Virus record (IMG/VR): IMGVR_UViG_3300045988_129873
Location: 1-28,944 of that record
Direction: 5' to 3' (one strand)
Source: a virus
Lineage: Duplodnaviria > Heunggongvirae > Uroviricota > Caudoviricetes
DNA length: 28,944 nt
The position numbers and the translations under genes are program-made. Numbering within the stretch: the stretch's first letter is position 1; every line of letters starts with the position of its first letter. The notes beneath the pieces were generated by a model that saw only the letters and a program-made list of their open reading frames with translations, was not told the DNA's origin and did no database searches. This document shows positions 3,177 to 27,189 of the stretch, in pieces.

Positions 3177-3478
3177 TGTCCTGTTCTCGTTCAGTTGTAT
3201 TACTGAATAACGCCTTAAAAATCGCCGTTATGAAAAATGGCGATTTATCTCTTATTCAACTTGGTCTTGATAAAGAAAAACGCGAAATAACTGAGTCTGT
3301 TATCGCGATTTATCAGAACGAATTAAATCTCCTGTCTGATGTGGTCAATTTACTTGTTAAACGCGCTGTATTTCACAAGCAAATCTCCTCCGTGGATGAA
3401 CTGACGAAATTAACGACAGAAATTGCCAGCTATTGCGCTGATGAATTTAAAAAACTTAACGACAAAAGGAGCTGGTAA
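3176..3478 (+). CDS. Hypothetical early protein (P2 orf81 position)
   Basis: ATG at 3176 overlaps the previous stop (TGATG) and is preceded by GGAGG. Confidence 0.55.
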   Translation: MSCSRSVVLLNNALKIAVMKNGDLSLIQLGLDKEKREITESVIAIYQNELNLLSDVVNLLVKRAVFHKQISSVDELTKLTTEIASYCADEFKKLNDKRSW

Positions 3479-3702
3479 TGCCGGACAACGTAGATTTTAT
3501 TCAGGAACAACAGGCTGAATTACTGGAGCGTCAGATTAACGCGGCAAGGGTAAAACATTGCGGTGCTTCTGCGCTGATTTGCGAAGAGTGTGACGCGCCA
3601 ATACCTGCTGCCCGTCGTGCGGCTTATCCGTCAGCCACGCGTTGTGTTTCCTGCCAGTCAGTCTTTGAAGCAAAAAACAAACATTACCGGAGAACGGCAT
3701 GA
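3478..3702 (+). CDS. TraR/DksA-family C4 zinc-finger protein (P2 orf82 position)
   Basis: 74 aa with CxxC...CxxC (CEECDAPIP...CVSCQ). AAAGGA SD 7 nt upstream. Confidence 0.75.
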   Translation: MPDNVDFIQEQQAELLERQINAARVKHCGASALICEECDAPIPAARRAAYPSATRCVSCQSVFEAKNKHYRRTA

Positions 3703-3974
3703 GTATTCGTATTGAAATTGGCGAACGTTATGTCGTTACCAGTGACAGCTTTCAGTTTATTCTCCACGAGAAAAAGAGAGCGGAAAGCGGTAAAAACGCC
3801 GGTCAGGAATGGCTGGCGGTGGTTGGTTATTATCCGAAATTAAGCCAGCTCGTTTCCGGCCTGATGCATCACGATATTCTGACCGGAAGCGCAAAGTCTT
3901 TTGCTGATTTAAACGCGCAGGTTGAGCAACTCAGCAAGCGTTGTTCAGAGGCTTTTGGCTCATATGGCCGTTAA
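3699..3974 (+). CDS. Hypothetical early protein (P2 orf83 position)
   Basis: ATG at 3699 with a GGAGA SD. Overlaps the A start by 11 nt. Confidence 0.55.
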   Translation: MSIRIEIGERYVVTSDSFQFILHEKKRAESGKNAGQEWLAVVGYYPKLSQLVSGLMHHDILTGSAKSFADLNAQVEQLSKRCSEAFGSYGR

Positions 3975-6240
3975 AGCCTCCGGGCGTTTTGTCCCTCCGT
4001 CAGCATTTGCTGCAGGCACCGGTAAGGCGTTTACCGGTGCTTATGCATGGAACGCGCCACGCGAGGCTGTCGGGCGCGAAAGACCCCTTACACGTGACGA
4101 GATGCGTCAGGTGCAAGGTGTTTTATCCACGATTAACCGCCTGCCTTACTTTTTGCGCTCGCTGTTTACGTCACGCTATGACTACATCCGGCGCAATAAA
4201 AGCCCGGTGCACGGGTTTTATTTCCTCACATCCACTTTTCAGCGTCGTTTATGGCCGCGCATTGAGCGTGTGAATCAGCGCCATGAAATGAACACCGACG
4301 CGTCGATGCTGTTTCTGGCTGAGCGTGACCACTATGCGCGCCTGCCGGGAATGAATGACAAGGAGCTGAAAAAGTTTGCCGCCCGTATCTCATCGCAGCT
4401 TTTCATGATGTATGAGGAACTCAGCGATGCCTGGGTGGATGCGCATGGCGAAAAAGAATCGCTGTTTACGGATGAGGCGCAGGCTCACCTCTATGGTCAT
4501 GTTGCTGGCGCTGCACGTGCTTTCAATATTTCCCCTCTCTACTGGAAAAAATACCGTAAAGGACAGATGACCACGAGGCAGGCATATTCTGCCATTGCCC
4601 GTCTGTTTAACGATGAGTGGTGGATTAGTCAGCTTAAAGGCCAGCGTATGCGCTGGCATGAGGCGTTACTGATTGCTGTCGGGGAGGTCAATAAAGACCG
4701 TTCTCCTTATGCCAGTAAACATGCCATTCGTGATGTGCGTGCACGCCGCCAGGCAAATCTGGAATTTCTTAAATCGTGTGATCTCGAAAACAGGGAAACA
4801 GGCGAGCGCATCGACCTTATCAGTAAGGTGATGGGCAGTATTTCTAATCCTGAAATTCGCCGGATGGAACTGATGAACACCATTGCCGGTATTGAGCGTT
4901 ACGCCGCCGCAGAAGGTGATGTGGGGATGTTTATCACGCTGACCGCGCCGTCAAAGTATCACCCGACACGTCAGGTTGGAAAAGGCGAAAGTAAAACCGT
5001 CCAGCTAAATCACGGCTGGAACGATGAGGCATTTAATCCAAAGGATGCGCAGCGTTATCTCTGCCGTATCTGGAGCCTGATGCGCACGGCATTCAAGGAT
5101 AATGATTTACAGGTCTACGGTTTGCGAGTCGTCGAGCCACACCACGACGGAACGCCGCACTGGCATATGATGCTTTTTTGTAATCCACGCCAGCGTAACC
5201 AGATTATCGAAATCATGCGTCGCTACGCGCTCAAAGAGGATGGCGACGAAAGAGGAGCTGCGCGAAACCGTTTTCAGGCAAAACATCTTAATCGGGGCGG
5301 TGCTGCGGGGTATATCGCGAAATACATCTCAAAAAATATCGACGGCTATGCACTGGATGGGCAGCTCGATAACGATAGCGGCAGACCGCTGAAAGATACT
5401 GCCGCGGCTGTTACCGCATGGGCGTCAACGTGGCGCATTCCGCAATTTAAAACGGTTGGCCTGCCGACAATGGGGGCTTACCGTGAACTACGCAAATTGC
5501 CTCGCGGCGTCAGCATTGCTGATGAGTTTGACGAGCGCGTCGAGGCTGCACGCGCCGCCGCAGACAGTGGTGATTTTGCGCTGTATATCAGCGCGCAGGG
5601 TGGGGCAAATGTCCCGCGCGATTGTCAGACTGTCAGGGTCGCCCGTAGTCCGTCGGATGAAGTTAACGAGTACGAGGAAGAAGTCGAGAGAGTGGTCGGC
5701 ATTTACGCGCCGCATCTCGGCGCGCGTCATATTCATATCACCAGAACGACGGACTGGCGCATTGTTCCGAAAGTGCCGGTCGTTGAGCCTTTGACTTTAA
5801 AAAGCGGCATCGCCGCGCCTCGGAGTCCTGTCAATAACTGTGGAAAGCTCACCGGTGGTGATACTTCGTTACCGGCTCCCACACCTTCTGAGCACGCCGC
5901 AGCAGTGCTTAATCTGGTTGATGACGGTGTTATCGAATGGAATGAGCCGGAGGTCGTGAAGGCGCTCAGGGGCGCATTAAAACACGGGCTGGGAACGCCA
6001 AATCGTCAGCAAAGAAACGGAAGCCCGTTAAAACCGCATGAAATTGCACCATCGGCCAGACTGACCCGGCCGGAACGATTGCAAATCACCCGTATCCGCG
6101 TTGACCTTGCTCAGAACGGTATCAGGCCGCAGCGATGGGAGCTTGAGGCGCTGGCGCGTGGGGCAACCGTAAATTATGACGGGAAAAAATTCACGTATCC
6201 GGTTGCTGATGAGTGGCCGGGGTTCTCGTTACCCATTTGA
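3964..6240 (+). CDS. A: Replication initiation endonuclease A (rolling-circle HUH nickase, P2 gpA-like)
   Basis: Trimmed to the ATG at 3964 (MAVKASGRF...); the track start is a TTG. Contains the HUH-type motif HWHMMLF and the tyrosine-pair region YIAKYISK characteristic of rolling-circle initiators. Confidence 0.92.
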   Translation: MAVKASGRFVPPSAFAAGTGKAFTGAYAWNAPREAVGRERPLTRDEMRQVQGVLSTINRLPYFLRSLFTSRYDYIRRNKSPVHGFYFLTSTFQRRLWPRIERVNQRHEMNTDASMLFLAERDHYARLPGMNDKELKKFAARISSQLFMMYEELSDAWVDAHGEKESLFTDEAQAHLYGHVAGAARAFNISPLYWKKYRKGQMTTRQAYSAIARLFNDEWWISQLKGQRMRWHEALLIAVGEVNKDRSPYASKHAIRDVRARRQANLEFLKSCDLENRETGERIDLISKVMGSISNPEIRRMELMNTIAGIERYAAAEGDVGMFITLTAPSKYHPTRQVGKGESKTVQLNHGWNDEAFNPKDAQRYLCRIWSLMRTAFKDNDLQVYGLRVVEPHHDGTPHWHMMLFCNPRQRNQIIEIMRRYALKEDGDERGAARNRFQAKHLNRGGAAGYIAKYISKNIDGYALDGQLDNDSGRPLKDTAAAVTAWASTWRIPQFKTVGLPTMGAYRELRKLPRGVSIADEFDERVEAARAAADSGDFALYISAQGGANVPRDCQTVRVARSPSDEVNEYEEEVERVVGIYAPHLGARHIHITRTTDWRIVPKVPVVEPLTLKSGIAAPRSPVNNCGKLTGGDTSLPAPTPSEHAAAVLNLVDDGVIEWNEPEVVKALRGALKHGLGTPNRQQRNGSPLKPHEIAPSARLTRPERLQITRIRVDLAQNGIRPQRWELEALARGATVNYDGKKFTYPVADEWPGFSLPI

Positions 6241-6500
6241 GTAAAAACACAACGTGATTTGATATGGCATTGAATGGCTTATGCGGAGCAGTTATGGGGC
6301 AGCAGAAGGTCAATAGCATGCTGAATTAGAAGGCTAAATGCTATTGAGTGACTAGCATGTCGGTAAGGACGGCCGTTTGATCCGGGTCATAAAAGGCCAT
6401 CCATTTAGTCTAATAAAATCATTGCGGGTAACCTTATGTCGACGCATAATTCATCTTGAGCGAAGTCTTGTCAGTCTTTCATCGTATTGATGATGGGCGC

Positions 6501-6531
6501 AAAAAAACCACCCTGGCAGGTGGTTTTTTTG
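6501..6531. terminator. Bidirectional rho-independent terminator (A-tract, 7-bp stem aaccacc/ggtggtt, 6-nt loop, T-tract)
   Basis: aaaaaaaccaccctggcaggtggttttttt read directly. Lies immediately 3' of the minus-strand small ORF and about 260 bp 3' of gene A. Confidence 0.7.
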
Positions 6532-6542
6532 TTTGAAGCATA

Positions 6543-6656
6543 TTAAAGCATAATGCTGACATTGATATTACTGACGTTTACTGACAAACCACTCGGACTA
6601 CCGTTTGGATAGCCAAAGAGGGCCAGAACGAGCATGCAGTAATAGCATTTCTTCAT
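6543..6656 (-). CDS. Candidate small hydrophobic peptide, 37 aa (MKKCYYCMLVLALFGYPNGSPSGLSVNVSNINVSIML)
   Basis: ATG at 6656 is preceded by a perfect AGGAGG SD at 4-nt spacing. The terminator at 6501..6531 follows directly after the stop. The longer 88-aa track ORF has no SD at its upstream starts. Confidence 0.4.
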   Translation of the reverse strand: MKKCYYCMLVLALFGYPNGSPSGLSVNVSNINVSIML

Positions 6657-6801
6657 ATTGCCTCCTGTAAGTAGAGGGCAACTTCCACCGGTATATGCGC
6701 TTCTTAGGTGGAATGACTTTTGAGCGAAGTCTTGCCCTGAAATAATGCTCTGTTTAAACGCAAAGTGATTTGGCATATCACCGAACAGAGAGCCGGAAAA
6801 A

Positions 6802-6849
6802 CACAACATATAGTATGTCGTTGTTTCTAGACATACATTCTATGTTGTG
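6802..6849. promoter_or_regulatory. Imperfect palindrome / hairpin (cacaacatatagtatgtc ... gacatacattctatgttgtg)
   Basis: 9-bp perfect outer arms plus inner 6-7 bp pairing around a 10-nt loop, upstream (minus-strand sense) of the small ORF. Confidence 0.4.
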
Positions 6850-7134
6850 TAACAAGGGCTTTGCATTAAACATGTTTGAGATTTTATTGATGTAGCTCAA
6901 AGTAAAAAACAGAGACTACGGTTGATAAGGTCTTGAAAGCAATGTAAATTTTTTAAAGTTGCCAATTGCTTAAAAATGTACAGTTGCGGTATGGCGTACT
7001 TAAAAAGCTATGCATGCAACAAGTGAATGTTTTTGCATGCGTTGGGGATGTCCGTTCAGGCTGCGTGCGGTCAGGACTGGTGCGGATCCATAGTATCTAT
7101 GCAACTGCATTAAAACCGCCCCGTGAAGCGGGCG

Positions 7135-7153
7135 GGCGAGGCGGGGAAAGCAC
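7135..7153. other. cos: cos site (19-nt cohesive end sequence ggcgaggcggggaaagcac)
   Basis: Matches the P2 cohesive-end sequence as I recall it. It is a GC-rich island in an otherwise AT-rich intergenic region, located between A and Q as expected for a prophage. Confidence 0.7.
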
Positions 7154-7297
7154 TGCGCGCAGCCCGTCAAGAATAAAAAACTCTCTTGCAGGTAGAAAAC
7201 ATTCTGTTAACATTTGTCTGGATGAAGTTTAAGTTAGAAATTTATGTTAATGAACTGATTGATACTTATGTTTTGTCAATAATTTAGGAATGTTAAG

Positions 7298-8434
7298 ATG
7301 ACAAGCTATGTTACATGGGCAAATAAAGGTGGAATAGGTAAATCAACATTATCTTTCCAATTGGCGTTAAAATACGCGAGATTAAACACGAATAAAAAAG
7401 TAATCATAATAGATATGAGCCCTCAGTGTGATGTCTCTAGAATGTTATTGGGGGGAGGGCATTTTAACGGTGAGCAAAAGATCTTGGATAGAATGACCTC
7501 TAATCCAAGGTTGACAATTTACCGGTATCTTGAGGCCTGTGTTAATGATGTTCCTTCTGGGAGGGGATGGCCTGATTCATTATCATACTTAATTGAACCT
7601 AATTCTTTTCGAGACGAAAACGCAGAAAAATTGCCTGATAATATTAGTATGGTCTGTGGAGATTTCGACTTAGAGAGGGTTACTCATAGTTTAGATAATT
7701 TGCCACAACCTCAACCAAGAGGCGGGCGTGTTCCGTCGGGTGCTCATTACTCAGCATATTTATTGCCACGCACTTTTCTACGGAAAATGGTGGAGGACTT
7801 TGAGCGCGAATACAGGGATGTGACAATTTTTATTGATACAGATCCATATTATTCGGTAGTAACAACACATCTGGGGCTTCTGGCTGCAGACAGGTTGATT
7901 TCGGCATACTCTCCTTCATCTCAAGCAAGCCAGTATGCAGTATATCGTAGCTTAGAGTTTCTATACGATCCTAATTATGGACTGGTGCAAGAGGTTAATA
8001 CACAGAGAGCAATATATGGTACCCCTTGGTTTGATAGTTTAAATAATATAATTACAACACCGAATATATCTGTTGCAAATCTTTATATGGTAGTAAGTAA
8101 CATGAATACGCCTCAGGCTGGAAGAGGACAACCTCCATACAGCCAACCCCAAAAACTACATAGACAATCGCAACAAGAAGTTATATCTAGAATTAATGAC
8201 ACATTAAGTAGTTTGGGGATCGCGCATGATTATGTTCATGACTATTTATGGGATCTCAAGAGATTAGGTTTGATTTGTGATTATAATGGTTTTGATTTAG
8301 CAACAATTCAATTAGGGGAAAATTATGCGGAACCAAGTGATGATGGTAATTATTATGTAAATACTACAGGTGGAACACCGATCCAATTATCATCCTATAA
8401 TGCTAGGATCGAAACTGTTACATCAAAACTATAA
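7298..8434 (+). CDS. AT-rich cargo gene: ParA/MinD-like P-loop ATPase (deviant Walker A) with uncharacterised C-terminal half, 378 aa
   Basis: Deviant Walker A KGGIGKST at residues 10-17 (7325..7348), an IIIDMSPQ motif like ParA DxDPQ, and a Walker-B-like TIFIDTDP near residue 175. AGGAA SD 7 nt upstream. Much lower GC than the backbone. Hairpin terminator directly after the stop. No ParB or parS partner seen. Confidence 0.8.
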   Translation: MTSYVTWANKGGIGKSTLSFQLALKYARLNTNKKVIIIDMSPQCDVSRMLLGGGHFNGEQKILDRMTSNPRLTIYRYLEACVNDVPSGRGWPDSLSYLIEPNSFRDENAEKLPDNISMVCGDFDLERVTHSLDNLPQPQPRGGRVPSGAHYSAYLLPRTFLRKMVEDFEREYRDVTIFIDTDPYYSVVTTHLGLLAADRLISAYSPSSQASQYAVYRSLEFLYDPNYGLVQEVNTQRAIYGTPWFDSLNNIITTPNISVANLYMVVSNMNTPQAGRGQPPYSQPQKLHRQSQQEVISRINDTLSSLGIAHDYVHDYLWDLKRLGLICDYNGFDLATIQLGENYAEPSDDGNYYVNTTGGTPIQLSSYNARIETVTSKL

Positions 8435-8440
8435 GAACTA

Positions 8441-8460
8441 GGGGAGCAAATGCTCCCTTT
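8441..8460. terminator. Hairpin gggagc-aaat-gctccc followed by a T-rich run; convergent terminator between the cargo ATPase and Q
   Basis: Read directly from the sequence; 6-bp GC-rich stem, 4-nt loop, TTT after. Confidence 0.55.
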
Positions 8461-8506
8461 CTATATATGGGTTATTAATTACCCGCTTATATAAATATTG
8501 AAGAAA

Positions 8507-9526
8507 CTATAGGGTGTATTGTCTGAATTTTATTACATTCTGACCGAGCCAGCCGTTTATTTCCCGAATCCTGTCCTGTAACGGGATAAGCTCATTGCGG
8601 ACAAAGACCTTTGCCACTTTCTCAATATCACCCAGCGACCCGACGTTCTCCGGCTTGCCACCCATCAACTGAAAGGGGATGCGGTGTGCGTCCAGCAGGT
8701 CAGCGGCGCTGGCTTTTTTGATATTAAAAAAATCATCCTTCGTTGCCACTTCACTGAGCGGGATAATTTTAATGCCGTCGGCTTTCCCTTGTGGGGCATA
8801 GAGGAACAGGTTTTTAAAGTTGTTGCGGCCTTTCGACTTCACCATGTTTTCGCGGAGCATTTCGATATCGTTGCGATCCTGCACGGCATCGGTGACGTAC
8901 ATGATGTATCCGGCATGTGCGCCGTTTTCGTAATACTTGCGGCGGAACAGCGTGGCCGACTCATTCAGCCAGGCAGAATTAAGGGCGCTCAGATATTCCG
9001 GCAGGCCGTACAGCTCCTGATTGATATCCGGCTCCAGCAGGTGAAACACGGAGCCGGGCGTGAAGGCTGTCGGCTCGTTGAAGGACGGCACCCACCAGTA
9101 AACATCCTCCTCCACGCCACGGCGGGTATATTTTGCCGGTGAGGTTTCCAGTCTGATGACCTTACCGGTGGTGCTGTAACGCTTTTCCAGAAACGCATTA
9201 CCGAACACCAGAAAATCCAGCACAAAGCGGCTGAAATCCTGCTGGGAAAGCCACGGATGCGGGATAAATGTCGAGGCCAGAATATTGCGTTTGACGTAAA
9301 TCGGTGAGCTGTGATGCACGGCAGCACGCAGGCTTTTTGCCAGACCGGTAAAGCTGACCGGTGGCTCATACCATCTGCCGTTACTGATGCACTCGACGTA
9401 ATCCAGAATGTCACGGCGGTCGAGTACCGGCACCGGCTCACCAAAGGTGAATGCCTCCATTTTCGGGGCGCTGGCGGTCATTTTTTTTGCCGCAGGTTGC
9501 GGTGTTTTCCCTTTTTTCTTGCTCAT
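8507..9526 (-). CDS. Q: Portal protein Q (P2 gpQ-like)
   Basis: 339 aa. Start ATG overlaps the P stop (ATGA). Order Q-P divergent from O-N-M-L as in P2. Confidence 0.92.
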   Translation of the reverse strand: MSKKKGKTPQPAAKKMTASAPKMEAFTFGEPVPVLDRRDILDYVECISNGRWYEPPVSFTGLAKSLRAAVHHSSPIYVKRNILASTFIPHPWLSQQDFSRFVLDFLVFGNAFLEKRYSTTGKVIRLETSPAKYTRRGVEEDVYWWVPSFNEPTAFTPGSVFHLLEPDINQELYGLPEYLSALNSAWLNESATLFRRKYYENGAHAGYIMYVTDAVQDRNDIEMLRENMVKSKGRNNFKNLFLYAPQGKADGIKIIPLSEVATKDDFFNIKKASAADLLDAHRIPFQLMGGKPENVGSLGDIEKVAKVFVRNELIPLQDRIREINGWLGQNVIKFRQYTL

Positions 9527-17227: not shown

Positions 17228-17672
17228 GTTTAAGCGTTTTGAAGACCGGCTGGCCGGACTTATTGAATCGCTGTCACCGTCAGGGCGTCGGCGACTGAGT
17301 GCCGAACTGGCGAAACGTCTGCGTCAGAGTCAGCAGCGTCGGGTGATGGCACAGAAAGCCCCGGACGGCACACCCTTCGCGCCACGCCAGCAGCAGAGAG
17401 CCAGAAAAAAGACCGGTCGCGTTAAGCGAAAAATGTTTGCGAAACTTATCACCAGTCGTTTTTTGCATATCCGCGCCAGCCCGGAACAGGCATCAATGGA
17501 ATTTTACGGCGGGAAGTCACCGAAAATCGCCAGTGTGCATCAGTTCGGTCTGTCGGAAGAAACCCGGAAAGACGGTAAGAAAATTGATTATCCGGCGCGT
17601 CCTCTGCTCGGCTTTACCGGTGAGGATGTGCAGATGATTGAAGAGATTATCCTGGCTCACCTCGACCGTTAG
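17220..17672 (+). CDS. S: Tail completion protein S (150 aa)
   Basis: 150 aa. Follows R with an overlapping start. Confidence 0.88.
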   Translation: MNEFKRFEDRLAGLIESLSPSGRRRLSAELAKRLRQSQQRRVMAQKAPDGTPFAPRQQQRARKKTGRVKRKMFAKLITSRFLHIRASPEQASMEFYGGKSPKIASVHQFGLSEETRKDGKKIDYPARPLLGFTGEDVQMIEEIILAHLDR

Positions 17673-17738
17673 TTGTGCCATTCCCGACACCTCATCGTCA
17701 CATTGCCGCCGGTATGACCCGGCGGCATCCTTCCCGTT

Positions 17739-18374
17739 ATGAACACTCTCGCAAATATTCAGGAACTCGCGCGCGCACTGCGCAACATGATACGCACCGG
17801 CATTATCGTCGAAACCGACCTTAACGCCGGTCGCTGCCGTGTGCAGACCGGCGGCATGTGCACCGACTGGCTTCAGTGGCTGACCCATCGCGCCGGACGT
17901 TCGCGCACGTGGTGGGCACCTTCCGAGGGGGAACAGGTGCTGATTCTGGCCGTGGGCGGTGAACTCGACACAGCGTTCGTTCTGCCGGGGATTTATTCCG
18001 GTGATAACCCCGCGCCGTCTGCGTCGGCGGATGCCCTGCATATCCGTTTCCCTGACGGGGCGGTGATTGAGTATGAACCCGAAACCAGTGCACTCACGGT
18101 AAGCGGAATTAAAACGGCCAGCGTGACGGCTTCTGATTCTGTTACTGCCACGGTGCCGGTGGTCATGGTGAAAGCGTCAACCCGCATCACCCTGGACACC
18201 CCGGAGGTGGTCTGCACCAACAGACTGATTACCGGCGCGCTGGAAGTGCAGAAGGGCGGGACGATGCGCGGCAACATTAAACATACCGGCGGTGAACTCT
18301 CATCAAACGGTAAGGTACTGCATACCCATAAACACCCCGGCGACAGCGGCGGCACAACCGGGAGTCCTCTATGA
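17739..18374 (+). CDS. V: Baseplate spike / assembly protein V (211 aa)
   Basis: 211 aa. First gene of the V-W-J-I-H-G late operon. Confidence 0.9.
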   Translation: MNTLANIQELARALRNMIRTGIIVETDLNAGRCRVQTGGMCTDWLQWLTHRAGRSRTWWAPSEGEQVLILAVGGELDTAFVLPGIYSGDNPAPSASADALHIRFPDGAVIEYEPETSALTVSGIKTASVTASDSVTATVPVVMVKASTRITLDTPEVVCTNRLITGALEVQKGGTMRGNIKHTGGELSSNGKVLHTHKHPGDSGGTTGSPL

Positions 18375-20164: not shown

Positions 20165-22414
20165 ATGAGCACAAAATTCAGAACCGTTATCACCACTGCC
20201 GGTGCAGCAAAGCTGGCAGCGGCAACCGCGCCGGGAGGGCGGAAGGTCAACATTACCACGATGGCCGTCGGGGATGGCGGTGGTAAATTGCCTGTCCCGG
20301 ATGCCGGACAGACCGGGCTTATCCACGAAGTCTGGCGACATGCGCTGAACAAAATCAGCCAGGACAAACGAAACAGTAATTATATTATCGCAGAGCTGGT
20401 TATTCCGCCGGAGGTGGGCGGTTTCTGGATGCGTGAGCTTGGCCTGTACGATGATGCGGGAACGTTAATTGCCGTGGCGAACATGGCCGAAAGTTATAAG
20501 CCTGCCCTTGCCGAAGGCTCAGGGCGTTCGCAGACCTGCCGCATGGTCATCATCGTCAGCAGTGTGGCCTCAGTGGCGCTGACCATTGACACCACAACGG
20601 TGATGGCAACGCAGGATTACGTTGATGACAAAATTGCAGAGCACGAACAGTCACGACGTCACCCGGACGCCTCGCTGACCGCAAAAGGTTTTACTCAGCT
20701 AAGCAGCGCGACCAACAGCACGTCTGAAACACTGGCCGCAACGCCGAAAGCAGTAAAGACCGCCTATGACCTTGCTAACGGGAAATATACTGCGCAGGAT
20801 GCCACCACAGCGCGAAAAGGTCTTGTCCAGCTCAGTAGTGCCACCAACAGCACGTCTGAAACGCTCGCCGCAACACCAAAAGCGGTTAAGGCAGCGTATG
20901 ACCTTGCTAACGGGAAATACACTGCACAGGACGCCACCACAGCGCGAAAAGGTCTTGTCCAGCTCAGTAGCGTCACCAACAGCGATTCTGAAACGCTTGC
21001 GGCAACGCCAAAGGCGGTAAAGGCCGCGTATGACCTTGCTAACGGGAAATACACTGCACAGGATGCCACTACAGCGCGAAAAGGTCTTGTCCAGCTCAGT
21101 AGCGCCACCAACAGTGATTCTGAAACGCTGGCCGCAACATCAAAAGCGGTGAAGTCTGCCTATGACAATGCTGAAAAACGTCTTCAGAAAGATCAGAACG
21201 GTGCGGATATTCCTGATAAAGGACGCTTCCTGAGTAACATTAATGTTTACAGCAAAGGTGAAGTGGATAAGAAAAAGGGAATGCGAAAGTATTCGTTTGC
21301 AGCCCCTGCAAATGTCGTTGCCGGGAAGTGGTATCCCGTTATCTTTCGCCGTGCTGCCAGCCTTTCAGGAGAAATGGCATCCCGCGTCGTTATTTCAACT
21401 GGTTGTTATAACGGCGATTATGTAATGAATAACTGCGAGTTTAATGGCATGGTTATGCCCGGAGGCTGGACCGATCGTGGTTCATATGCGGCAGGTTATT
21501 TCTGGACGTATCAGACTAATGAGCGTTCAATCCATTCCATTGTTACAAGCCTGAAAGATGATGATGTATGTAGTGTTTTTTATGTTGAAGCCAGAGCTTT
21601 CCCAGTACAAATTCTTGCAGAGGAAGGGCTAACGGTTATTGTTCCGACAGAGGATTATGTCGTCGGTCAGACGACATATAAGTGGGGGGCAACTAATCCC
21701 GCTACAGAAAGCACGAACGTACAGGCTATTCTGGATTTTAAAAATGGACGTGGTTATTACTGTTCACATCCATTTATTTCCAGCCTTTCAGGAAATGCTG
21801 CAACAGCAACGAAGTTAGCGAACGCAAGAAATATTAATGGTGTCAGATTTGATGGCTCTGCCGATATAAATATTAATACACTGGTATCCAGAAACCGTGT
21901 TACTGCATTAGGTGGGAGCGTAAAGGGGACACCAGGTATTCAGATGTATGAGGCATACAACAATGGCTACCCAACAGCCTATGGTAATGTGCTTCATCTC
22001 ACTGGCGTAACCGCTGTAGGAGAGGGTGAGTTACTTATTGGCTGGAGTGGAACCAGCGGTGCTCATGCTCCGGCATATATTCGCTCCCGACGAGATACCA
22101 CAGATGCTAACTGGTCTGGATGGGCGCAACTATATACAACTGCTCATAAACCCTCAGCGGGAGATGTTGGTGCATACACCAAAGCTGAGTCAGATTCACG
22201 TTATGTGAGAGACATGCGGTTGGGCGGTGCATCTACATATAAACCAGCAAATAATGGTACTACATGGACGCATCAGGCTCCGTCAGGTTGCGTATATACC
22301 GGCATTATTGTTCAGGATACCGGCTCAAACTCTGCCGATAACATTGGTGGCGTATATTACAGACCGGTGCAGAAATACATTAACGGGACATGGTATAACG
22401 TGGCGCAGGTATAA
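20165..22414 (+). CDS. H: Tail fibre protein H (749 aa) with internal tandem repeats and a lower-GC C-terminal receptor-binding part
   Basis: Conserved N-terminal baseplate-attachment region. Fibre repeat motifs (SSATNSTSETLAATPKAVK). Position before tail-fibre assembly gene G. Confidence 0.9.
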   Translation: MSTKFRTVITTAGAAKLAAATAPGGRKVNITTMAVGDGGGKLPVPDAGQTGLIHEVWRHALNKISQDKRNSNYIIAELVIPPEVGGFWMRELGLYDDAGTLIAVANMAESYKPALAEGSGRSQTCRMVIIVSSVASVALTIDTTTVMATQDYVDDKIAEHEQSRRHPDASLTAKGFTQLSSATNSTSETLAATPKAVKTAYDLANGKYTAQDATTARKGLVQLSSATNSTSETLAATPKAVKAAYDLANGKYTAQDATTARKGLVQLSSVTNSDSETLAATPKAVKAAYDLANGKYTAQDATTARKGLVQLSSATNSDSETLAATSKAVKSAYDNAEKRLQKDQNGADIPDKGRFLSNINVYSKGEVDKKKGMRKYSFAAPANVVAGKWYPVIFRRAASLSGEMASRVVISTGCYNGDYVMNNCEFNGMVMPGGWTDRGSYAAGYFWTYQTNERSIHSIVTSLKDDDVCSVFYVEARAFPVQILAEEGLTVIVPTEDYVVGQTTYKWGATNPATESTNVQAILDFKNGRGYYCSHPFISSLSGNAATATKLANARNINGVRFDGSADININTLVSRNRVTALGGSVKGTPGIQMYEAYNNGYPTAYGNVLHLTGVTAVGEGELLIGWSGTSGAHAPAYIRSRRDTTDANWSGWAQLYTTAHKPSAGDVGAYTKAESDSRYVRDMRLGGASTYKPANNGTTWTHQAPSGCVYTGIIVQDTGSNSADNIGGVYYRPVQKYINGTWYNVAQV
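20684..21181 (+). repeat. Tandem 132-bp (44-aa) in-frame repeat array, about 3.75 copies, inside gene H
   Basis: aaaggtcttgtccagctcagtag recurs at 20816, 20948 and 21080 (period 132). Protein units KG[FL][TV]QLSS[AV]TNS[TD]SETLAATPKAVK[TA]AYDLANGKYTAQDATTAR. Confidence 0.9.
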
Positions 22415-22417
22415 TTT

Positions 22418-22945
22418 ATGCAGCATTTAAAAAATATTACGGCGGGTAATCCAAAAACGGTTGAACAATATCAATTGACAAAGGACTTTGATGTTGTCTG
22501 GTTTTTTTCAGAAGATGGTAAGAACTGGTACGAAGAACAAAAGTATTTTGCTGATGACACGATAAAAATAGCGTACGACAAAGATAATATCATCCACTAT
22601 GTGGAAAAGGATGTGACAGCTATCAGACCGGATGGATTAAGTGTTGTTGAAGTGGCGGATATTACTGCTAACCGACGGGCGGACATTTCAGGGAACTGGA
22701 TGTTTAAGGACGGCAAAGTGATTAAACGCATTTATACGGCAGAGGAATTACAGCAGCAGGCAGAAATTCGGAAAGCCAGACTTCTTGCAGATGCTGAATC
22801 CGTGATTTTGCCGCTGGAGCGCGCGGTCAGACTGAACATGGCAACAGATGAGGAGCGCAGCCGACTGGAAGCATGGGAACGCTACAGCGTTCTGGTCAGT
22901 CGTGTGGATCCTGCAAATCCTGAATGGCCGGAAATGCCGCAATAA
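22418..22945 (+). CDS. G: Tail fibre assembly chaperone G (175 aa)
   Basis: 175 aa. Directly downstream of H. Confidence 0.88.
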
Positions 22946-23107
22946 GTTGTATGAGCTCTGGTGTGAGCTTACATATTTATGGCACAGAGTAAAGCCTAAT
23001 CTGACAGTCCGCTCTGTGCCACGAGCGGAAGCTGTCAAGATCATGCTAGATAGCGGGAGGGGCAAGCAATAGCAGATATGCGAACATGGTGATATATAAG
23101 ATAAATA

Positions 23108-23136
23108 GCCTATCAATAATAAAATCCCTGATAGGC
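23108..23136 (-). terminator. Candidate hairpin terminator downstream of the 720-aa cargo gene (stem gcctatca/tgataggc, 13-nt loop)
   Basis: Inverted repeat read from the sequence, about 50 bp 3' of the minus-strand stop. The loop is long and the T-tract weak. Confidence 0.3.
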
Positions 23137-23182
23137 TGTGATGAATAATTAATTCAGTCATTGAACCATATACTGCGGTTTT

Positions 23183-25345
23183 TTAGTTCTTTATTTTTGC
23201 CATTTTTTTATAATGTGCAGAATAACCTGTGTGCTCAAACACTAATCTAAGCCCCTCTTTGAAATCATTATAGTTAAATTCCTTGAAGTCAAAAATGTTC
23301 TGTCCTAATGAGTGTGACTCTCTGTTTATGTAACGAATAAAGGATTGAAATCGTGGTTTTTTTAACTCTGGTTTTTGAGTGACATTGCTTAAATCTGCTT
23401 TTTGTACAAAATTGAAAAAGTATTCAATTATATTTCTCATGCAGTTAGCAATTAAGGCAGGAGGCTGTTTGTCATCATTGATTACTGACCAATAAGACTG
23501 GTAGTCATTTTGTATTTCATCGTATTTCATTAAGATAATTGAACTGCCGTTGGAGTTTTTAGAAAGCCTAAATAAATTTTGATTTTCTTTTCTTCTTTCA
23601 TGGTTTGCATCAGCGAGTTCATAGAAAAAATATAAGCTGTGAGATAAAACAAATATCTGCTCTATTTCATTAGAGTTAAAGAAATCATTTTTTATTAGTT
23701 GGCCTATATTGTAGACAAAAATATGTGATAAGCTTGATACAGGATCATCGATTATAGCTATTTTTTTGGTTTTACCCTCGGTGGCGACTCTTTTACCTCT
23801 GAATAGTTCTCTAAAATACAAAAGGCTGATAATCATTTTTTCGCCTTCACTTAATGATGAGAATACTTTAGAATTAGAGTCATTACGTACTATGCGATAA
23901 AGAGTATCCTCATATTTTGCGATGTGAAAATCTGTGATTCCGATGTCATTTAAACCTTGGTTTATGTTGAATACGGCATCATCTATATTTACTGTTGATT
24001 TCTGATATTCAATCCGTTCTGCATCTTTAGTCTTTATTTTTGCTTCTTTTTCATCTTTGGCGGTGTTTTTTCTGATTATTATAATGTTTGCACTTTCTTT
24101 TATTTCGTTGAAATTTAAAATTGTTTGATCATACTCATACCTTAAGAACTGCCAGAAAGAAATTTTTATTTTTTCTAGCTCGTGTTTTGCATTGTCTATT
24201 TTTGAGTTATGTGTGGTTATTTCATTGTTCACTAATTTCACTAATGAATTGAAGTTATCAACAGAGTTGGATATATCATTCAGCGTTACTGGGGTACTGG
24301 GGTTTGTTACCTTCTGCTTTATTAGTTCCAAGTTGCTCTCTGTATCTTTTCTTAACAGGGCGTAACAGTCGCTTAATTGAACTATATAATTTGAAGATAG
24401 TTTGCATTCTTTATAAGTATCCAGTGAAGGAATACTGTCAATCAATGAGTTATATTTGGTCTGAATGGATTTTATTTTTTTTACACTATCTTGATACGTT
24501 TCATCGAAATAGTTGCGAATATGCTGAACCAAGTTTTCAGTTATAATTTGAGATTGACAAAATGGACACTGAGAATCTCCTGTTTGTTCTAAGTATTTTA
24601 GTCCTTCATTTACCCAATCAGAGTTCTGAAGCTTACTTATAAGATATGAAACGGGACTATCTGTACTTCCCACAATTATATTCTGAAGTAATTCCACTTC
24701 ATCGAGTGATAATACGATGGTGTGAATCTCCTCTAGCATGCTGTATTTTATTGCTGTTTCGCCATCAATCGCACTTGCTTCTTCTTTTAAGTCAGAGATG
24801 TTTTTTGATGGCTTAGAATTAGGTAAAGGAATGGAGCAAAGATGGTTGAATAATGATTCTTTACTTCCCATTTTTCCTAATAAACAAAATTCAAGGACCC
24901 TGTCACCACCTGAATAGTTGGTTTTTATTTCCCATGTTTTATTTTGAGCTTTGTTTTTTGCATCAGAAACAGAGGTGTTTTGTGCTGTTATTTCTTTTTC
25001 AATTTCACGTTTTTCATCAGATAGTTTTATTATTTCTAATGTGAGGCTCTCAACCTTTTCTTTTGCTTCTTTATTTTCCTTGGACAAGCTAAATATTCCA
25101 TTTAAAGAATCCTTTGCATAAAAGTTATCCTGAATGAATTTCTGATTGTAGACAAGGATTTCATCATACTCACCTGAGTGGGAACAATTCTCATATTTTT
25201 TATTATCTATGTCATAGAAATAATTGGAGAAGGTGCTTTTACCTGTTCCATTTAAACCATAAATAATATTTACTTTTTTATCAGTATTTAACTCTGATTT
25301 TGACTTATAACTTGCAACTTTATTTAGAACTATATTGTTTATCAT
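23183..25345 (-). CDS. AT-rich cargo gene at the Z/fun position: ABC/SMC-type ATPase with coiled-coil, CxxC hook-like motif and C-terminal HEPN-like R-x6-H; candidate RloC/PrrC-like defence nuclease, 720 aa
   Basis: Walker A GLNGTGKST at residues 30-38 (25232..25258). Charged coiled-coil stretches around residues 85-135 and 370-450. SQCPFCQ at residues 257-263 (about 24557..24577). ABC-signature-like SLSEGEK at 497-503. Walker B KKIAIIDDP at 527-535 (23741..23767). H-loop-like VLSHS at about 566-570. RYINRESH at 671-678 (23312..23335). About 25-30% GC in sampled stretches. Confidence 0.8.
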   Translation of the reverse strand: MINNIVLNKVASYKSKSELNTDKKVNIIYGLNGTGKSTFSNYFYDIDNKKYENCSHSGEYDEILVYNQKFIQDNFYAKDSLNGIFSLSKENKEAKEKVESLTLEIIKLSDEKREIEKEITAQNTSVSDAKNKAQNKTWEIKTNYSGGDRVLEFCLLGKMGSKESLFNHLCSIPLPNSKPSKNISDLKEEASAIDGETAIKYSMLEEIHTIVLSLDEVELLQNIIVGSTDSPVSYLISKLQNSDWVNEGLKYLEQTGDSQCPFCQSQIITENLVQHIRNYFDETYQDSVKKIKSIQTKYNSLIDSIPSLDTYKECKLSSNYIVQLSDCYALLRKDTESNLELIKQKVTNPSTPVTLNDISNSVDNFNSLVKLVNNEITTHNSKIDNAKHELEKIKISFWQFLRYEYDQTILNFNEIKESANIIIIRKNTAKDEKEAKIKTKDAERIEYQKSTVNIDDAVFNINQGLNDIGITDFHIAKYEDTLYRIVRNDSNSKVFSSLSEGEKMIISLLYFRELFRGKRVATEGKTKKIAIIDDPVSSLSHIFVYNIGQLIKNDFFNSNEIEQIFVLSHSLYFFYELADANHERRKENQNLFRLSKNSNGSSIILMKYDEIQNDYQSYWSVINDDKQPPALIANCMRNIIEYFFNFVQKADLSNVTQKPELKKPRFQSFIRYINRESHSLGQNIFDFKEFNYNDFKEGLRLVFEHTGYSAHYKKMAKIKN

Positions 25346-25871
25346 GATTTGCCATTTAGATGTTCGTGAATAAAGATTGATAAAGTATCTCTTATGAGGG
25401 CTCTAAGCAAGTAAAAGAGTGATATTTTGCGACATAGATACAAAAGATATTACCTCGCTGCTGCGGGGGGGTATCTTCATTGCAAGGCTTGGGTGTCAGT
25501 TAATTTAAGTGGTGGTTTTGATTATCTTTATATTTTCATGATTAACTAATCACTGTAAAAATTATTTTGTATTTTAGTTGGTCTTTTTTGATTCTAAAAT
25601 TAATAGTGTGCAGGATAAGCGTAAACTAATTTATTCACCGAAACGGTTGGCGGTTCTGTTCGTATTTTTTTCATTCTTGTAGACCCCGCTTCATTCAACA
25701 GTACGTTCAGTAGGTGAGCCTTTATACCACAAGTTTTTTAACTGCCCATAAAAATATTAAAAGTGCGCCTACGAAGTTGCAAGGCCTGCTCCTCGCTCAA
25801 GCAGGCTGTCAGATTTGATAGCGTTTTGGCTATGTAAACTGTCAGTCGGAAAATGAGTGAGTACAAATCAA

Positions 25872-25902
25872 GGCAGGCAATCTGATTGCCCGCCTTTTCT
25901 TT
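25872..25902 (+). terminator. Rho-independent terminator (stem ggcaggcaa/ttgcccgcc with one mismatch, loop tctga, T-tract ttttctttatc), probably ending the H-G late transcript beyond the cargo island
   Basis: Read directly from the sequence. Sits between the cargo island and the FI start. Confidence 0.55.
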
Positions 25903-25998
25903 ATCTGTTGTTTCATCCACTGACCAGTCAGGTCAAATAGCGTCTCATGCACTGCCCAACAGAAAATAGTTGCACCCATTAACCACGGAGTTAAACGG

Positions 25999-27189
25999 AT
26001 GAGTGACTATCATCATGGCGTGCAGGTGCTGGAGATTAACGACGGCACCCGCGTCATTTCCACCGTATCCACTGCCATTGTCGGCATGGTCTGCACGGCC
26101 AGCGATGCGGATGCGGAAACCTTCCCCCTCAATAAACCTGTGCTGATTACCAATGCCCAGAGCGCAATTGCAAAGGCCGGTAAAAAAGGCACGCTGGCGG
26201 CATCGTTGCAGGCCATCGCTGACCAGTCAAAACCGGTCACCGTTGTCGTGCGCGTGGAAGACGGCACCGGTGATGACGAGGAAACGAAACTCGCGCAGAC
26301 CGTTTCCAATATCATCGGCACCACCGACGAAAACGGTCAGTACACCGGACTAAAAGCCCTGCTGGCGGCGGAGTCGGTAACCGGTGTTAAACCGCGTATT
26401 CTCGGTGTGCCGGGACTGGATACCAAAGAGGTGGCTGTTGCACTGGCATCCGTCTGTCAGAAGCTGCGCGCTTTCGGATATATCAGCGCATGGGGCTGTA
26501 AGACCATTTCCGAGGTGAAAGCCTACCGCCAGAATTTCAGCCAGCGTGAGCTGATGGTCATCTGGCCGGATTTCCTCGCATGGGATACGGTCACCAGTAC
26601 CACCGCCACCGCGTATGTCACCGCCCGTGCGCTGGGTCTGCGCGCTAAAATCGACCAGGAGCAGGGCTGGCATAAAACGCTGTCCAACGTCGGGGTAAAC
26701 GGTGTTACCGGCATCAGCGCGTCCGTATTCTGGGATTTGCAGGAGTCCGGCACCGATGCTGACCTGCTTAACGAGTCAGGCGTCACAACGCTGATTCGCC
26801 GTGACGGTTTCCGCTTCTGGGGTAACCGTACCTGCTCTGATGACCCGCTGTTCCTCTTTGAAAACTACACCCGCACCGCGCAGGTGCTGGCCGACACGAT
26901 GGCTGAGGCGCACATGTGGGCGGTGGACAAGCCCATCACCGCAACGCTGATTCGCGACATCGTTGACGGCATCAATGCCAAATTCCGAGAGCTGAAAACA
27001 AACGGCTATATCGTGGATGCGACCTGCTGGTTCAGCGAAGAATCCAACGATGCGGAAACCCTCAAGGCCGGAAAACTGTATATCGACTACGACTATACCC
27101 CGGTGCCTCCTCTCGAAAACCTGACCCTGCGCCAGCGTATTACCGATAAATACCTGGCAAATCTGGTCACCTCGGTTAACAGCAATTAA
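25999..27189 (+). CDS. FI: Tail sheath protein FI (396 aa)
   Basis: 396 aa, same as P2 FI. Followed by FII-E-T. Confidence 0.92.
   Translation: MSDYHHGVQVLEINDGTRVISTVSTAIVGMVCTASDADAETFPLNKPVLITNAQSAIAKAGKKGTLAASLQAIADQSKPVTVVVRVEDGTGDDEETKLAQTVSNIIGTTDENGQYTGLKALLAAESVTGVKPRILGVPGLDTKEVAVALASVCQKLRAFGYISAWGCKTISEVKAYRQNFSQRELMVIWPDFLAWDTVTSTTATAYVTARALGLRAKIDQEQGWHKTLSNVGVNGVTGISASVFWDLQESGTDADLLNESGVTTLIRRDGFRFWGNRTCSDDPLFLFENYTRTAQVLADTMAEAHMWAVDKPITATLIRDIVDGINAKFRELKTNGYIVDATCWFSEESNDAETLKAGKLYIDYDYTPVPPLENLTLRQRITDKYLANLVTSVNSN

What the first reader, a model, noticed from the sequence alone, without database searches (positions are those of the whole stretch)
25346..25902. Long AT-rich leader of the cargo ATPase and a terminator placed to stop antisense read-through from the H-G operon
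Upstream of the 720-aa gene (minus strand) there is about 350 bp of very AT-rich, ORF-free sequence, and the gene has a poor SD. On the plus strand, the only good terminator after G is at 25872..25902, on the far side of the island. Late transcription from the V-W-J-I-H-G operon would therefore run antisense across the whole defence gene before terminating. This could couple silencing of the cargo gene to lytic induction; the AT-rich leader is also a plausible H-NS target.
Basis: inference. Interest (0 to 1): 0.45.

Follow-up and report, generated by a model that had tools for sequence, protein, structure and literature searches.

The report
P2 hotspot cargo leader and terminator
The stretch is the junction between a mobile, AT-rich defence-gene cassette, which brings its own upstream region, and the conserved terminator of a P2-like phage's tail-gene operon; the layout is real but is the ordinary architecture of a known phage hotspot, not a device built for this gene.

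Summary
An ORF-poor, 35% GC stretch lies upstream of the 720-aa AAA_13/PDC-S06 gene. Its Shine-Dalgarno is very weak. The hairpin at 25872-25894 plus UUUUCUUU is the only canonical intrinsic terminator on either strand between G and FI.

The region is composite:
- 25346 to about 25800 is the cargo cassette's own 5' region. The same leader precedes 82-90% identical homologues in six non-P2 contexts.
- 25786-25871 is the right inverted repeat of the known P2 Z/fun hotspot.
- 25870-25902 is the ancestral V-operon terminator (tV). It lies 4-6 nt after the G stop in nine relatives with no island, and at -123..-105 from FI in most of 61 distinct loci.
- From about 25909 on is the Ogr-dependent PF promoter.

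So the terminator was not placed for this gene; the island was inserted upstream of it. Cargo occurs on either strand at this hotspot, and islands rarely carry a + strand terminator of their own.

Late antisense read-through is anatomically plausible but untested. Rho-dependent termination of the 2.9 kb untranslated RNA is a serious rival. The leader has no conserved RNA structure and no Rfam match. H-NS binding could not be tested. This is a new member of a known kind, of modest interest.

The parts
22418..22945 (+). G, tail fibre assembly protein; last gene of the V-W-J-I-H-G late unit
   Evidence: Pfam Caudo_TAP 3.7e-34; ORF list; homologous to P2 G.
22946..23028 (+). Left inverted repeat of the Z/fun hotspot (conserved backbone). 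Contains the hairpin 22980-23021, with no U tract.
   Evidence: Conserved in P2 and in most island-bearing loci, absent from empty sites. Annotated as 'left inverted repeat' in AJ512680 and AJ512676. Folds at -24.7 kcal/mol, z -2.3. Pairs with 25800-25815 as inverted repeat I6.
23029..23182 (-). 3' flank of the cargo cassette. Contains the hairpin 23139->23107 (AGCCUAUCAGG...UGAUAGGCU), the probable weak terminator of the cargo gene.
   Evidence: Conserved downstream of homologues in non-P2 contexts, with compensatory changes in L098. Folds at -13.3 kcal/mol, z -4.0. Not canonical by the terminator score.
23183..25345 (-). Cargo gene: 720-aa AAA_13 ATPase (RloC-like family), PADLOC candidate defence system PDC-S06; 31% GC
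   Evidence: Pfam PF13166 3.2e-108. PADLOC PDC-S06 9.8e-255. No NCBIfam or PDB sequence match. GC content.
25346..25785 (-).
   Evidence: Aligns with the upstream regions of 82-90% identical homologues in six unrelated contexts: over the whole length in L096 and L100, and over the proximal ~175 nt in all. Identity is about that of third codon positions. No conserved RNA structure.
25382..25410 (-). Candidate weak sigma-70 promoter of the cargo gene: TTGCTT (25410->25405), 17-nt spacer, TACTTT (25387->25382)
   Evidence: Read from alignments A3 and A4. Hexamer positions and the 17-nt spacer are kept in all seven leader homologues. Only 6 of 12 consensus matches, and not called by the scan. Inference.
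25786..25871 (+). Right inverted repeat of the Z/fun hotspot (conserved backbone); itself a ~70-nt imperfect palindrome
   Evidence: Present in 1009 of 5426 E. coli genomes. Annotated as 'right inverted repeat' in AJ512680. The + strand fold is -29.2 kcal/mol (z -3.4) against -19.6 for the minus strand. 92.7% of cells are paired in 35 variants, but there is no covariation beyond shuffles. The + strand is more stable in 38 of 39 variants.
25870..25902 (+). tV: intrinsic terminator of the V-W-J-I-H-G late unit (stem 25870-25896, U tract 25895-25902); a weakened variant of the family consensus
   Evidence: Only d>0 site in 22900-26010. Found at -123..-105 from FI in most of 61 distinct loci, including 9 empty sites where it follows the G stop by 4-6 nt. 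90.6% of cells paired, with 2 compensatory pairs, in 24 variants.
25909..25926 (+). Probable Ogr activator site of the PF late promoter (TGT-N12-CCA, as in P2)
   Evidence: Aligns with the P2 feature 'activator binding site; activation of pF promoter' at 17555-17583. The sequence was read directly.
25999..27189 (+). FI, tail sheath protein; first gene of the F operon
   Evidence: Pfam Phage_sheath_1 2e-33; P2 annotation.

Best explanation
The 557 bp are a junction of two unrelated things.

The cassette side. From 25346 to about 25800 (minus-strand sense) lies the 5' region of a ~2.75 kb low-GC moron cassette: 5' region, AAA_13/PDC-S06 gene, weak 3' hairpin. The cassette also occurs, with the same upstream sequence, in chromosomal islands of other Enterobacterales. 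It probably carries the gene's own weak promoter and a short untranslated leader. In this P2-borne copy the SD has been weakened by a point mutation.

The backbone side. From 25786 to 25998 lies conserved P2-type backbone:
- the right inverted repeat of the Z/fun hotspot, itself a long hairpin on the + strand;
- the intrinsic terminator tV of the V-W-J-I-H-G late unit;
- the Ogr-activated PF promoter.

How the layout arose. tV is ancestral. In relatives without an island it lies a few bases after the G stop. The island, bracketed by the two inverted repeats, sits between the G stop and tV.

Consequence (inferred). Late transcripts that leave G meet no intrinsic terminator until tV. They either run antisense over the cargo gene or are stopped earlier by Rho. 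Any damping of cargo expression during lytic growth is a by-product of where the hotspot lies, not a design feature of this gene.

Shown: the anatomy, the conservation and the ancestry. Inferred: promoter position, read-through and its effect.
For: - Boundaries. 1009 of 5426 E. coli genomes match only from window ~25776-25799 onward; 2 match the whole leader.
- Empty sites. Yersinia P37, Salmonella FSL SP-004 and seven IMG/VR loci have G-FI spacers of 128-152 bp, with the hairpin directly after the G stop.
- tV position. It lies at -123..-105 from FI in most of 61 distinct intergenic regions, with d of 6 to 58.
- Exclusivity. tV is the only d>0 terminator on either strand in 22900-26010.
- Inverted repeats. 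They are annotated in AJ512680 and AJ512676, and are present only when an island is present.
- Leader. It is homologous to the upstream regions of homologues next to a SymE toxin gene, T6SS Hcp, psp operon, TIR and NACHT genes, in non-P2 contexts.
- Cassette 3' hairpin. It is conserved, with compensatory changes.
- SD energies.
- Orientation. Cargo occurs on both strands, and extra + strand terminators are rare: P2, L032 and L058 only.
- P2 contrast. The P2 record annotates its own V-operon terminator inside its island, next to fun(Z). That site scores d=17.7, while P2's copy of tV scores -7.2.
Against: - No transcript data were available, so read-through, promoter use and termination efficiency are all predictions.
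- tV in this window is a weakened variant: GGCAATC in place of GGCGGGC, d=9 against a typical 38.
- The terminator score is my own implementation of a published rule, written from memory.
- The candidate promoter matches only 6 of 12 consensus positions. The two 9-of-12 sites further upstream (25598->25571 and 25559->25532) are no more frequent than chance.
- Leader conservation is no higher than at synonymous sites. It therefore shows co-inheritance, not function.
- The 61 loci are mostly close relatives (FI 86-99% identical), so the counts are not independent events.
Confidence: 0.7

Rival explanations
1. Rho-dependent termination, possibly helped by H-NS bound to the AT-rich island, stops the untranslated late transcript soon after G. 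Little or no antisense RNA would then cover the cargo gene. On this view tV mainly ends the mRNAs of plus-oriented cargo in other islands and insulates PF.
For: - After the G stop the + strand RNA is untranslated for 2.9 kb.
- 36% of 78-nt windows have C>G. Several reach C/G 1.9-2.9, for example 23178-23324 and 24830-24954.
- Two windows also meet a regular C-spacing rule.
- Established knowledge: Rho preferentially terminates untranslated, antisense and horizontally acquired AT-rich transcription in E. coli.
- The + strand bias of the right-repeat hairpin is explained equally well by plus-oriented cargo mRNAs.
Against: - The + strand RNA of the island is U-rich and C-poor overall (15% C, 16% G, 41% T). 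That is not a classical rut composition.
- The first ~230 nt after G have G>=C.
- No experimental data bear on it.
Confidence: 0.35
2. The arrangement is selected so that late V-operon transcription silences the defence gene by antisense transcription or transcriptional interference at lytic induction. The AT-rich leader would be an H-NS-silenced control region.
For: - There is no intrinsic terminator between G and tV.
- The cargo is convergent with the late unit.
- The cargo's SD and candidate promoter are weak, so it would be easy to override.
- Transcriptional interference between convergent promoters is established in the related coliphage 186 (own knowledge).
Against: - The same layout is found with cargo on the + strand in about half of the island types, and tV pre-dates the island. 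There is thus no sign of selection for the antisense arrangement.
- P2 itself does the opposite. It carries a strong terminator between G and fun(Z).
- Protein made in the lysogen persists after induction, so late transcriptional silencing would have little effect within one lytic cycle.
- The H-NS motif is not enriched.
Confidence: 0.15
3. The left inverted-repeat hairpin (22980-23047) is the working 3' end of the V-operon mRNA. It would act as a U-tract-less terminator, a pause site, or an RNase-protected processing end.
For: - It is a strong fold, at -24.7 kcal/mol and z -2.3.
- It is conserved in all island-bearing relatives.
- It lies 35 nt after the G stop.
Against: - It has no U tract, so d is below -30.
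- It is absent from empty-site phages, where tV does the job.
- Hairpins without U tracts do not terminate E. coli RNA polymerase efficiently (established knowledge).
Confidence: 0.1
4. The long upstream region is a structured regulatory RNA leader (riboswitch, thermosensor or attenuator), or it encodes a small RNA or peptide.
For: - The proximal ~175 nt are recognisably conserved in seven contexts.
- A G+C-rich hairpin lies at 25446-25475.
Against: - The leader folds no better than shuffles (z 0.05).
- The consensus structure is -7 kcal/mol with a positive covariation term and no compensatory pairs.
- No Rfam family passes its threshold; the only match has E=1.
- The 25446-25475 hairpin is not conserved in relatives.
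- The small ORFs are not conserved. ATG AAG... stops after 4 codons in relatives.
Confidence: 0.05

Closest known systems
P2 Z/fun locus (the second P2 defence hotspot, between G and FI)
   Same: - Same position, between the tail fibre assembly gene G and the sheath gene FI.
- Same flanking inverted repeats, the same conserved hairpin and the same PF promoter.
- Low-GC, minus-strand, single-gene cargo, as with fun(Z).
- The hotspot is described in PMC9519451 and in bioRxiv 10.1101/2024.10.15.618418.
   Different: - The cargo is an AAA_13/PDC-S06 ATPase, not Fun(Z).
- The P2 island carries its own strong terminator between G and fun(Z), annotated as the V-operon terminator (d=17.7). This island has none.
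- Here tV scores d=9; in P2 it has decayed to d=-7.
Phage morons (autonomous promoter-gene-terminator insertions between late genes of temperate phages)
   Same: - Low-GC foreign gene inserted between two conserved late genes.
- It brings its own upstream and downstream non-coding DNA.
- It is presumably expressed from the prophage.
   Different: - Neither a clear promoter nor a canonical terminator could be shown.
- The cassette is antisense to the late unit. It lies inside that unit rather than between two units.
Transcriptional interference between convergent promoters (coliphage 186 pR/pL; own knowledge)
   Same: A strong phage promoter would fire across a weak convergent promoter in a P2-family phage.
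   Different: - Here the distance is ~7.6 kb from the V start to the cargo promoter, not tens of bp.
- No promoter has been mapped.
- Nothing shows that the strong transcript arrives.
RloC / PrrC anticodon nucleases (the described members of Pfam AAA_13)
   Same: - Full-length AAA_13 match.
- A CPFC motif in the middle of the protein, as in the RloC zinc hook (read from the translation).
- Some 57-59% identical homologues are named RloC or 'wobble nucleotide-excising tRNase' by their sources.
   Different: - The PADLOC PrrC model matches only the P-loop (1.1e-05).
- There is no NCBIfam or PDB match.
- Nuclease residues were not examined.
- This concerns the cargo, not the finding itself.

Membership tests
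Rho-independent (intrinsic) terminator | G+C-rich hairpin immediately followed by a U-rich tract | tested here: met
   An 11-bp stem with one A.C mismatch, -14.2 kcal/mol, followed by UUUUCUUU; d=9.3; also found by the consensus scan.
Rho-independent (intrinsic) terminator | Lies downstream of the last gene of a transcription unit, at a conserved position | tested here: met
   It lies 4-6 nt after the G stop in 9 empty-site relatives, and at -123..-105 from FI in most of 61 loci.
Rho-independent (intrinsic) terminator | Actually terminates transcription | not testable with these tools
   Needs Term-seq or a reporter assay.
P2 Z/fun hotspot island | Variable DNA between G and FI of a P2-like phage | tested here: met
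   Pfam assignments for G and FI; island boundaries.
P2 Z/fun hotspot island | Flanked by the left and right inverted repeats annotated in the Z-region records | tested here: met
   The repeats are annotated in AJ512680 and AJ512676. The window matches at 22946-23028 and 25786-25870. Inverted pair I6.
Phage moron | Base composition foreign to the phage | tested here: met
   31-35% GC against 52-56%.
Phage moron | Own promoter and own terminator | tested here: inconclusive
   There is a positionally conserved but weak TTGCTT-17-TACTTT. The 3' hairpin is conserved but lacks a proper U tract.
Antisense / convergent transcriptional interference | The transcript of the opposing unit extends over the target gene or its promoter | not testable with these tools
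   Only the absence of an intrinsic terminator is shown. Rho cannot be excluded.
H-NS-silenced xenogeneic DNA | AT-rich relative to the host and phage backbone | tested here: met
H-NS-silenced xenogeneic DNA | H-NS occupancy or high-affinity nucleation sites | tested here: inconclusive
   TCGATAAATT with up to 2 mismatches gives 30 matches against 29 expected in the window. Occupancy needs ChIP.
Structured cis-regulatory RNA leader | A fold more stable than chance, conserved with covariation | tested here: not met
   z 0.05; no compensatory pairs; no Rfam match passing threshold.
ERIC / IRU repeat | Significant similarity to the 127-nt ERIC consensus | tested here: not met
   Only short exact words are shared (GAGCTTACATA, TGAGCGA, TGCAACTT). 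Local alignment against shuffles gives p of about 0.02 and 0.08.

The most novel reading that the evidence does not exclude
The Z/fun hotspot of P2-like phages lies inside the late V transcription unit by design. The two inverted-repeat hairpins would act as a landing pad for cassettes, and the conserved tV downstream would make every cargo subject to late transcription. Plus-oriented cargo would be co-expressed and minus-oriented cargo, such as this defence ATPase, would be shut down. A prophage could then switch its defence genes off, or on, at induction without any dedicated regulator.
Probability: 0.12. Interest if true: 0.55.

Novelty: new member of a known kind. Interest (0 to 1): 0.27.

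Why it matters
The Z/fun hotspot is a recognised reservoir of anti-phage genes. Knowing that its cargo sits between the last late gene and that unit's conserved terminator has three uses.

- It tells anyone cloning or annotating such cargo where the cassette ends and the phage begins: here at about 23029 and about 25786-25800.
- It shows which non-coding DNA belongs to the gene. The whole 455-nt upstream region travels with it.
- It warns that expression during lytic growth may differ with cargo orientation.

It also corrects the impression, taken from the P2 reference record, that the V operon always ends before the island. None of this is surprising to a P2 specialist, and the functional claim remains untested.

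Tried and rejected
- ERIC origin of the hotspot repeats and cassette ends. Real ERIC copies were retrieved. Similarity to the flanks is not significant. Rejected as unsupported.
- Structured leader RNA. RNAalifold on 7 leaders and a single-sequence fold gave no signal.
- Rfam. The only match is a trpB motif at E=1, 26 bits against a gathering score of 59. Chance.
- Conserved upstream small ORFs. None is kept in relatives.
- The G+C-rich hairpin at 25446-25475 as an attenuator. It is not conserved in the other leaders, and it is stronger on the + strand than on the cargo's own strand.
- Metagenome pattern scan for more leader copies. Of 17 stretches, only L114 is real, and it is 100% identical to the window.
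- Representative-genome scan for the cargo. Only 28-49% identical relatives were found, too far for DNA comparison.
- Covariation in tV and in the right repeat. Pairing is kept (90.6% and 92.7% of cells). Compensatory changes are too few, and the sequences too close, to exceed the shuffles.
- H-NS motif count. At chance level.
- Literature. The accessible papers describe the hotspot but say nothing on its terminators or on antisense transcription. Nilsson et al. 2004 (doi 10.1093/molbev/msg223), which deposited the inverted-repeat annotations, is not held.

Full report
**Context.** The window is a P2-like (Peduovirus) prophage.
- The + strand carries V (17739-18374), W, J, I, H (20165-22414) and G (22418-22945). 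After a 3053-bp gap come FI (25999-27189) and FII.
- The gap holds one long ORF, on the minus strand (23183-25345, 720 aa). It matches Pfam AAA_13 over its full length (3.2e-108) and the PADLOC candidate defence family PDC-S06 (9.8e-255).
- This is the Z/fun position of P2, a recognised defence hotspot (PMC9519451; bioRxiv 10.1101/2024.10.15.618418).

**Checking the observation.**
- Composition. 25346-25700 is 34.1% GC and 25346-25785 is 35.2%. The backbone up to the G stop is 51.8% GC and FI onward is 56.1%.
- ORFs. There is no ORF of 50 aa or more between 25346 and 25737. The one nearby is a 60-aa GTG ORF at 25738-25920 on the minus strand. It has no Pfam match and lies over conserved non-coding backbone.
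- SD. The sequence before the ATG is ...CUAAAUGGCAAAUC-AUG, and its best duplex with the anti-SD is -1.5 kcal/mol. Six homologues with the same leader read AAGGG and give -4.4 to -8.3. The late genes of the window give -2.2 to -9.5. 'Poor SD' is correct, and it is a derived G->T change shared with the only other E. coli genome that carries this island (L002).
- Terminator. I scanned both strands of 22900-26010 with a hairpin-energy plus U-tail score. This is my own implementation, from memory, of the d'Aubenton-Carafa rule; P2's annotated V terminator scores 17.7 on it. The only site above zero is GGCAGGCAAUCUGAUUGCCCGCC (25872-25894) followed by UUUUCUUU, with d=9.3. On the whole window it is the first + strand site after 9511. 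It folds at -14.2 kcal/mol, z -3.4.
- Hairpin after G. The hairpin at 22980-23021 exists, with an alternative fold of -24.7 kcal/mol. It is followed by CGAGCGGAAG and fails the score.

**The region is composite.**
- A megablast of 25346-25998 against 5426 complete E. coli genomes hits 1009 of them, but nearly all matches start at window 25776-25799. Only two genomes hold the whole query. 25786-25998 is therefore phage backbone, and the AT-rich part is island.
- On the other side, backbone conservation ends at about 23028.
- The two backbone flanks, 22946-23028 and 25786-25870, are the 'left' and 'right inverted repeat' annotated in the Z-region records AJ512680 and AJ512676. They contain the inverted pair found by the repeat finder, 22998-23013 with 25800-25815.

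**The terminator is ancestral.**
- Yersinia phage P37 and Salmonella phage FSL SP-004 have G-FI spacers of 133 and 134 bp. The homologous hairpin and U tract begin 4-6 nt after the G stop and are followed directly by the PF region.
- I collected 61 distinct G-FI intergenic regions: 80 IMG/VR loci found through FI, plus reference phages. Nine are empty sites of 128-152 bp. The remainder are longer spacers, mostly islands of 849-4404 bp.
- A + strand terminator lies at -123..-105 (or -127..-109) from the FI start in most of them, with d of 6 to 58.
- The inverted repeats occur only where an island is present.
- Pairing in the hairpin is kept in 90.6% of cells across 24 variants, with two compensatory pairs. 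The sequences are too close for this to exceed the shuffles.
- The window's copy is a weakened variant: GGCAATC replaces GGCGGGC, and the stem shifts register, giving d 9 against the usual ~38.
- Downstream, TGT-N12-CCA at 25909-25926 aligns with the annotated Ogr site of P2 PF.

**The architecture is generic.**
- Among the island types, 17 have plus-strand ORFs only, 12 minus-strand only and 6 both.
- Only P2, L032 and L058 have another + strand terminator between G and tV.
- P2 is instructive. Its record annotates a 'putative rho-independent terminator for V operon' inside its island, abutting the 3' end of fun(Z). That site scores 17.7, while P2's copy of tV has decayed to -7.2.
- The present island has no such element. 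The terminator was not placed for this gene; the island was inserted upstream of it.

**The 'leader' belongs to the cassette.**
- Homologues 82-90% identical in protein lie in unrelated contexts: beside a SymE toxin gene in Raoultella; between T6SS hcp and the psp operon in an Enterobacteriaceae isolate; and next to TIR, NACHT or SMEK genes in metagenome contigs. None is a P2 hotspot.
- Their upstream DNA aligns with the window's. The alignment covers the whole 455 nt in L096 and L100 and the proximal ~175 nt in all six. The 71-72% identical clade has a different leader with a good SD.
- The 3' flank is also shared, through the hairpin AGCCUAUCAGG...UGAUAGGCU (window 23139->23107). That hairpin shows compensatory changes in L098 and folds at -13.3 kcal/mol, z -4.0.
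- The mobile unit is therefore about 23055-25800. Its 5' end (TTGAGCGAGGAG, 25800->25789) overlaps the inner end of the right repeat.
- Leader identity is 75-80% to L096 and L100. That is about the identity of third codon positions (82-84%), against 91% for the CDS overall. The conservation thus shows common descent, not extra constraint.
- No structure is conserved. The window leader folds no better than shuffles (z 0.05). RNAalifold gives -7 kcal/mol with no compensatory pair. Rfam gives nothing above threshold. Small ORFs are not kept.
- One weak promoter-like arrangement keeps its position and 17-nt spacer in all seven leaders: TTGCTT (25410->25405), 17 nt, TACTTT (25387->25382). If it is used, the transcribed leader is only ~30 nt, and most of the 'leader' is upstream DNA. 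This is an inference.

**The right repeat.**
- 25786-25871 is itself a ~70-nt imperfect palindrome. The + strand RNA folds at -29.2 kcal/mol (z -3.4) and the minus strand at -19.6, because three positions are G.U.
- The + strand is the more stable in 38 of 39 variants.
- Pairing holds in 92.7% of cells against ~30% for slid controls, but without covariation beyond shuffles.
- This suggests that the element acts in + strand RNA just before tV. Such RNA could be either late read-through or the mRNAs of plus-oriented cargo, so it does not decide the question.

**Does read-through happen?** This cannot be shown here.
- After the G stop the RNA is untranslated for 2.9 kb.
- Overall it is U-rich and C-poor (15% C). 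Even so, 36% of 78-nt windows have C>G, and several reach C/G 1.9-2.9.
- Rho is known to act on untranslated, antisense and foreign AT-rich transcription, so early Rho-dependent termination is a serious rival.
- H-NS could not be tested. AT-richness is met, but the high-affinity motif is at chance.
- Even if antisense RNA is made, the ATPase already present in the lysogen would persist through one lytic cycle. That weakens the functional reading.

**Comparison and verdict.**
- The closest known object is the P2 Z/fun locus itself: same site, repeats, hairpin and PF promoter, with a different cargo and without P2's island-borne terminator.
- It fits the moron concept in composition and in carrying its own flanks. 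A clear promoter and terminator could not be shown.
- An ERIC origin for the repeats was tested against genuine ERIC copies and is not supported.
The finding is a new member of a known kind, with a modest general point: cargo of this hotspot lies inside the late V unit, upstream of its conserved terminator.

Noticed in passing
window 6240-8507 (ORF 7298-8434 +): The other classical P2 hotspot, between gpA (3922-6240) and the portal gene (8507-9526, minus strand), carries a 378-aa ParA/MinD-like ATPase (AAA_31 4.4e-10, CbiA) with no PADLOC match. This fits the report that about a quarter of P2-like phages carry a putative partition system there (PMC9122126).
   Followed up: partly
window 17673-17738: S is followed directly by V: the orf30 insertion of P2 is absent. 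The 66-bp spacer holds TGT-N12-ACC (17675-17692) and a G+C-rich hairpin GCCGCCGG-TATGAC-CCGGCGGC (17705-17726), which P2 lacks at this place. In P2 the V transcript is annotated as starting at the first base of V.
   Followed up: partly
window 25789-25800 and 23022-23028; L096 3030-3050 and 5800-5830: The cassette ends carry a short shared word, TGAGCG(A/G)GGA / GAGCGGA. It appears at both ends of the homologous cassette in non-P2 contexts and at the inner ends of both P2 inverted repeats. It could be the microhomology, or the site, used for cassette exchange.
   Followed up: partly
window 25384-25470 compared with L096, L100, L097, L098, L118, L119: The P2-borne copy of the leader differs from all relatives in three ways: the SD G->T change, a 7-nt deletion (CCTTGGG) 30 nt upstream of the ATG, and an AGA deletion with a C-rich replacement at 25451-25466. 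Together these look like down-tuning or decay of expression signals.
   Followed up: no
L003 (P2) 4022-4044 compared with 2143-2165: In P2 the conserved hairpin upstream of PF scores below the terminator threshold (d -7), while the island-borne terminator next to fun(Z) is strong (d 17.7). It is as if the ancestral terminator relaxed once a new one arrived.
   Followed up: no
L009, L020, L022, L025, L029, L033 and others: A second class of relatives keeps only the PF-proximal ~90 nt and lacks G-end, repeats and tV matches upstream of FI. Phage records of this class annotate a DNA invertase next to FI (pro483 and S164), which points to a different tail-fibre module architecture.
   Followed up: no
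L114 (OGZY01000426.1) 3191-5805: A metagenome contig carries the cargo gene and the leader at 100% identity to the window. It is probably the same or a near-identical prophage.
   Followed up: no
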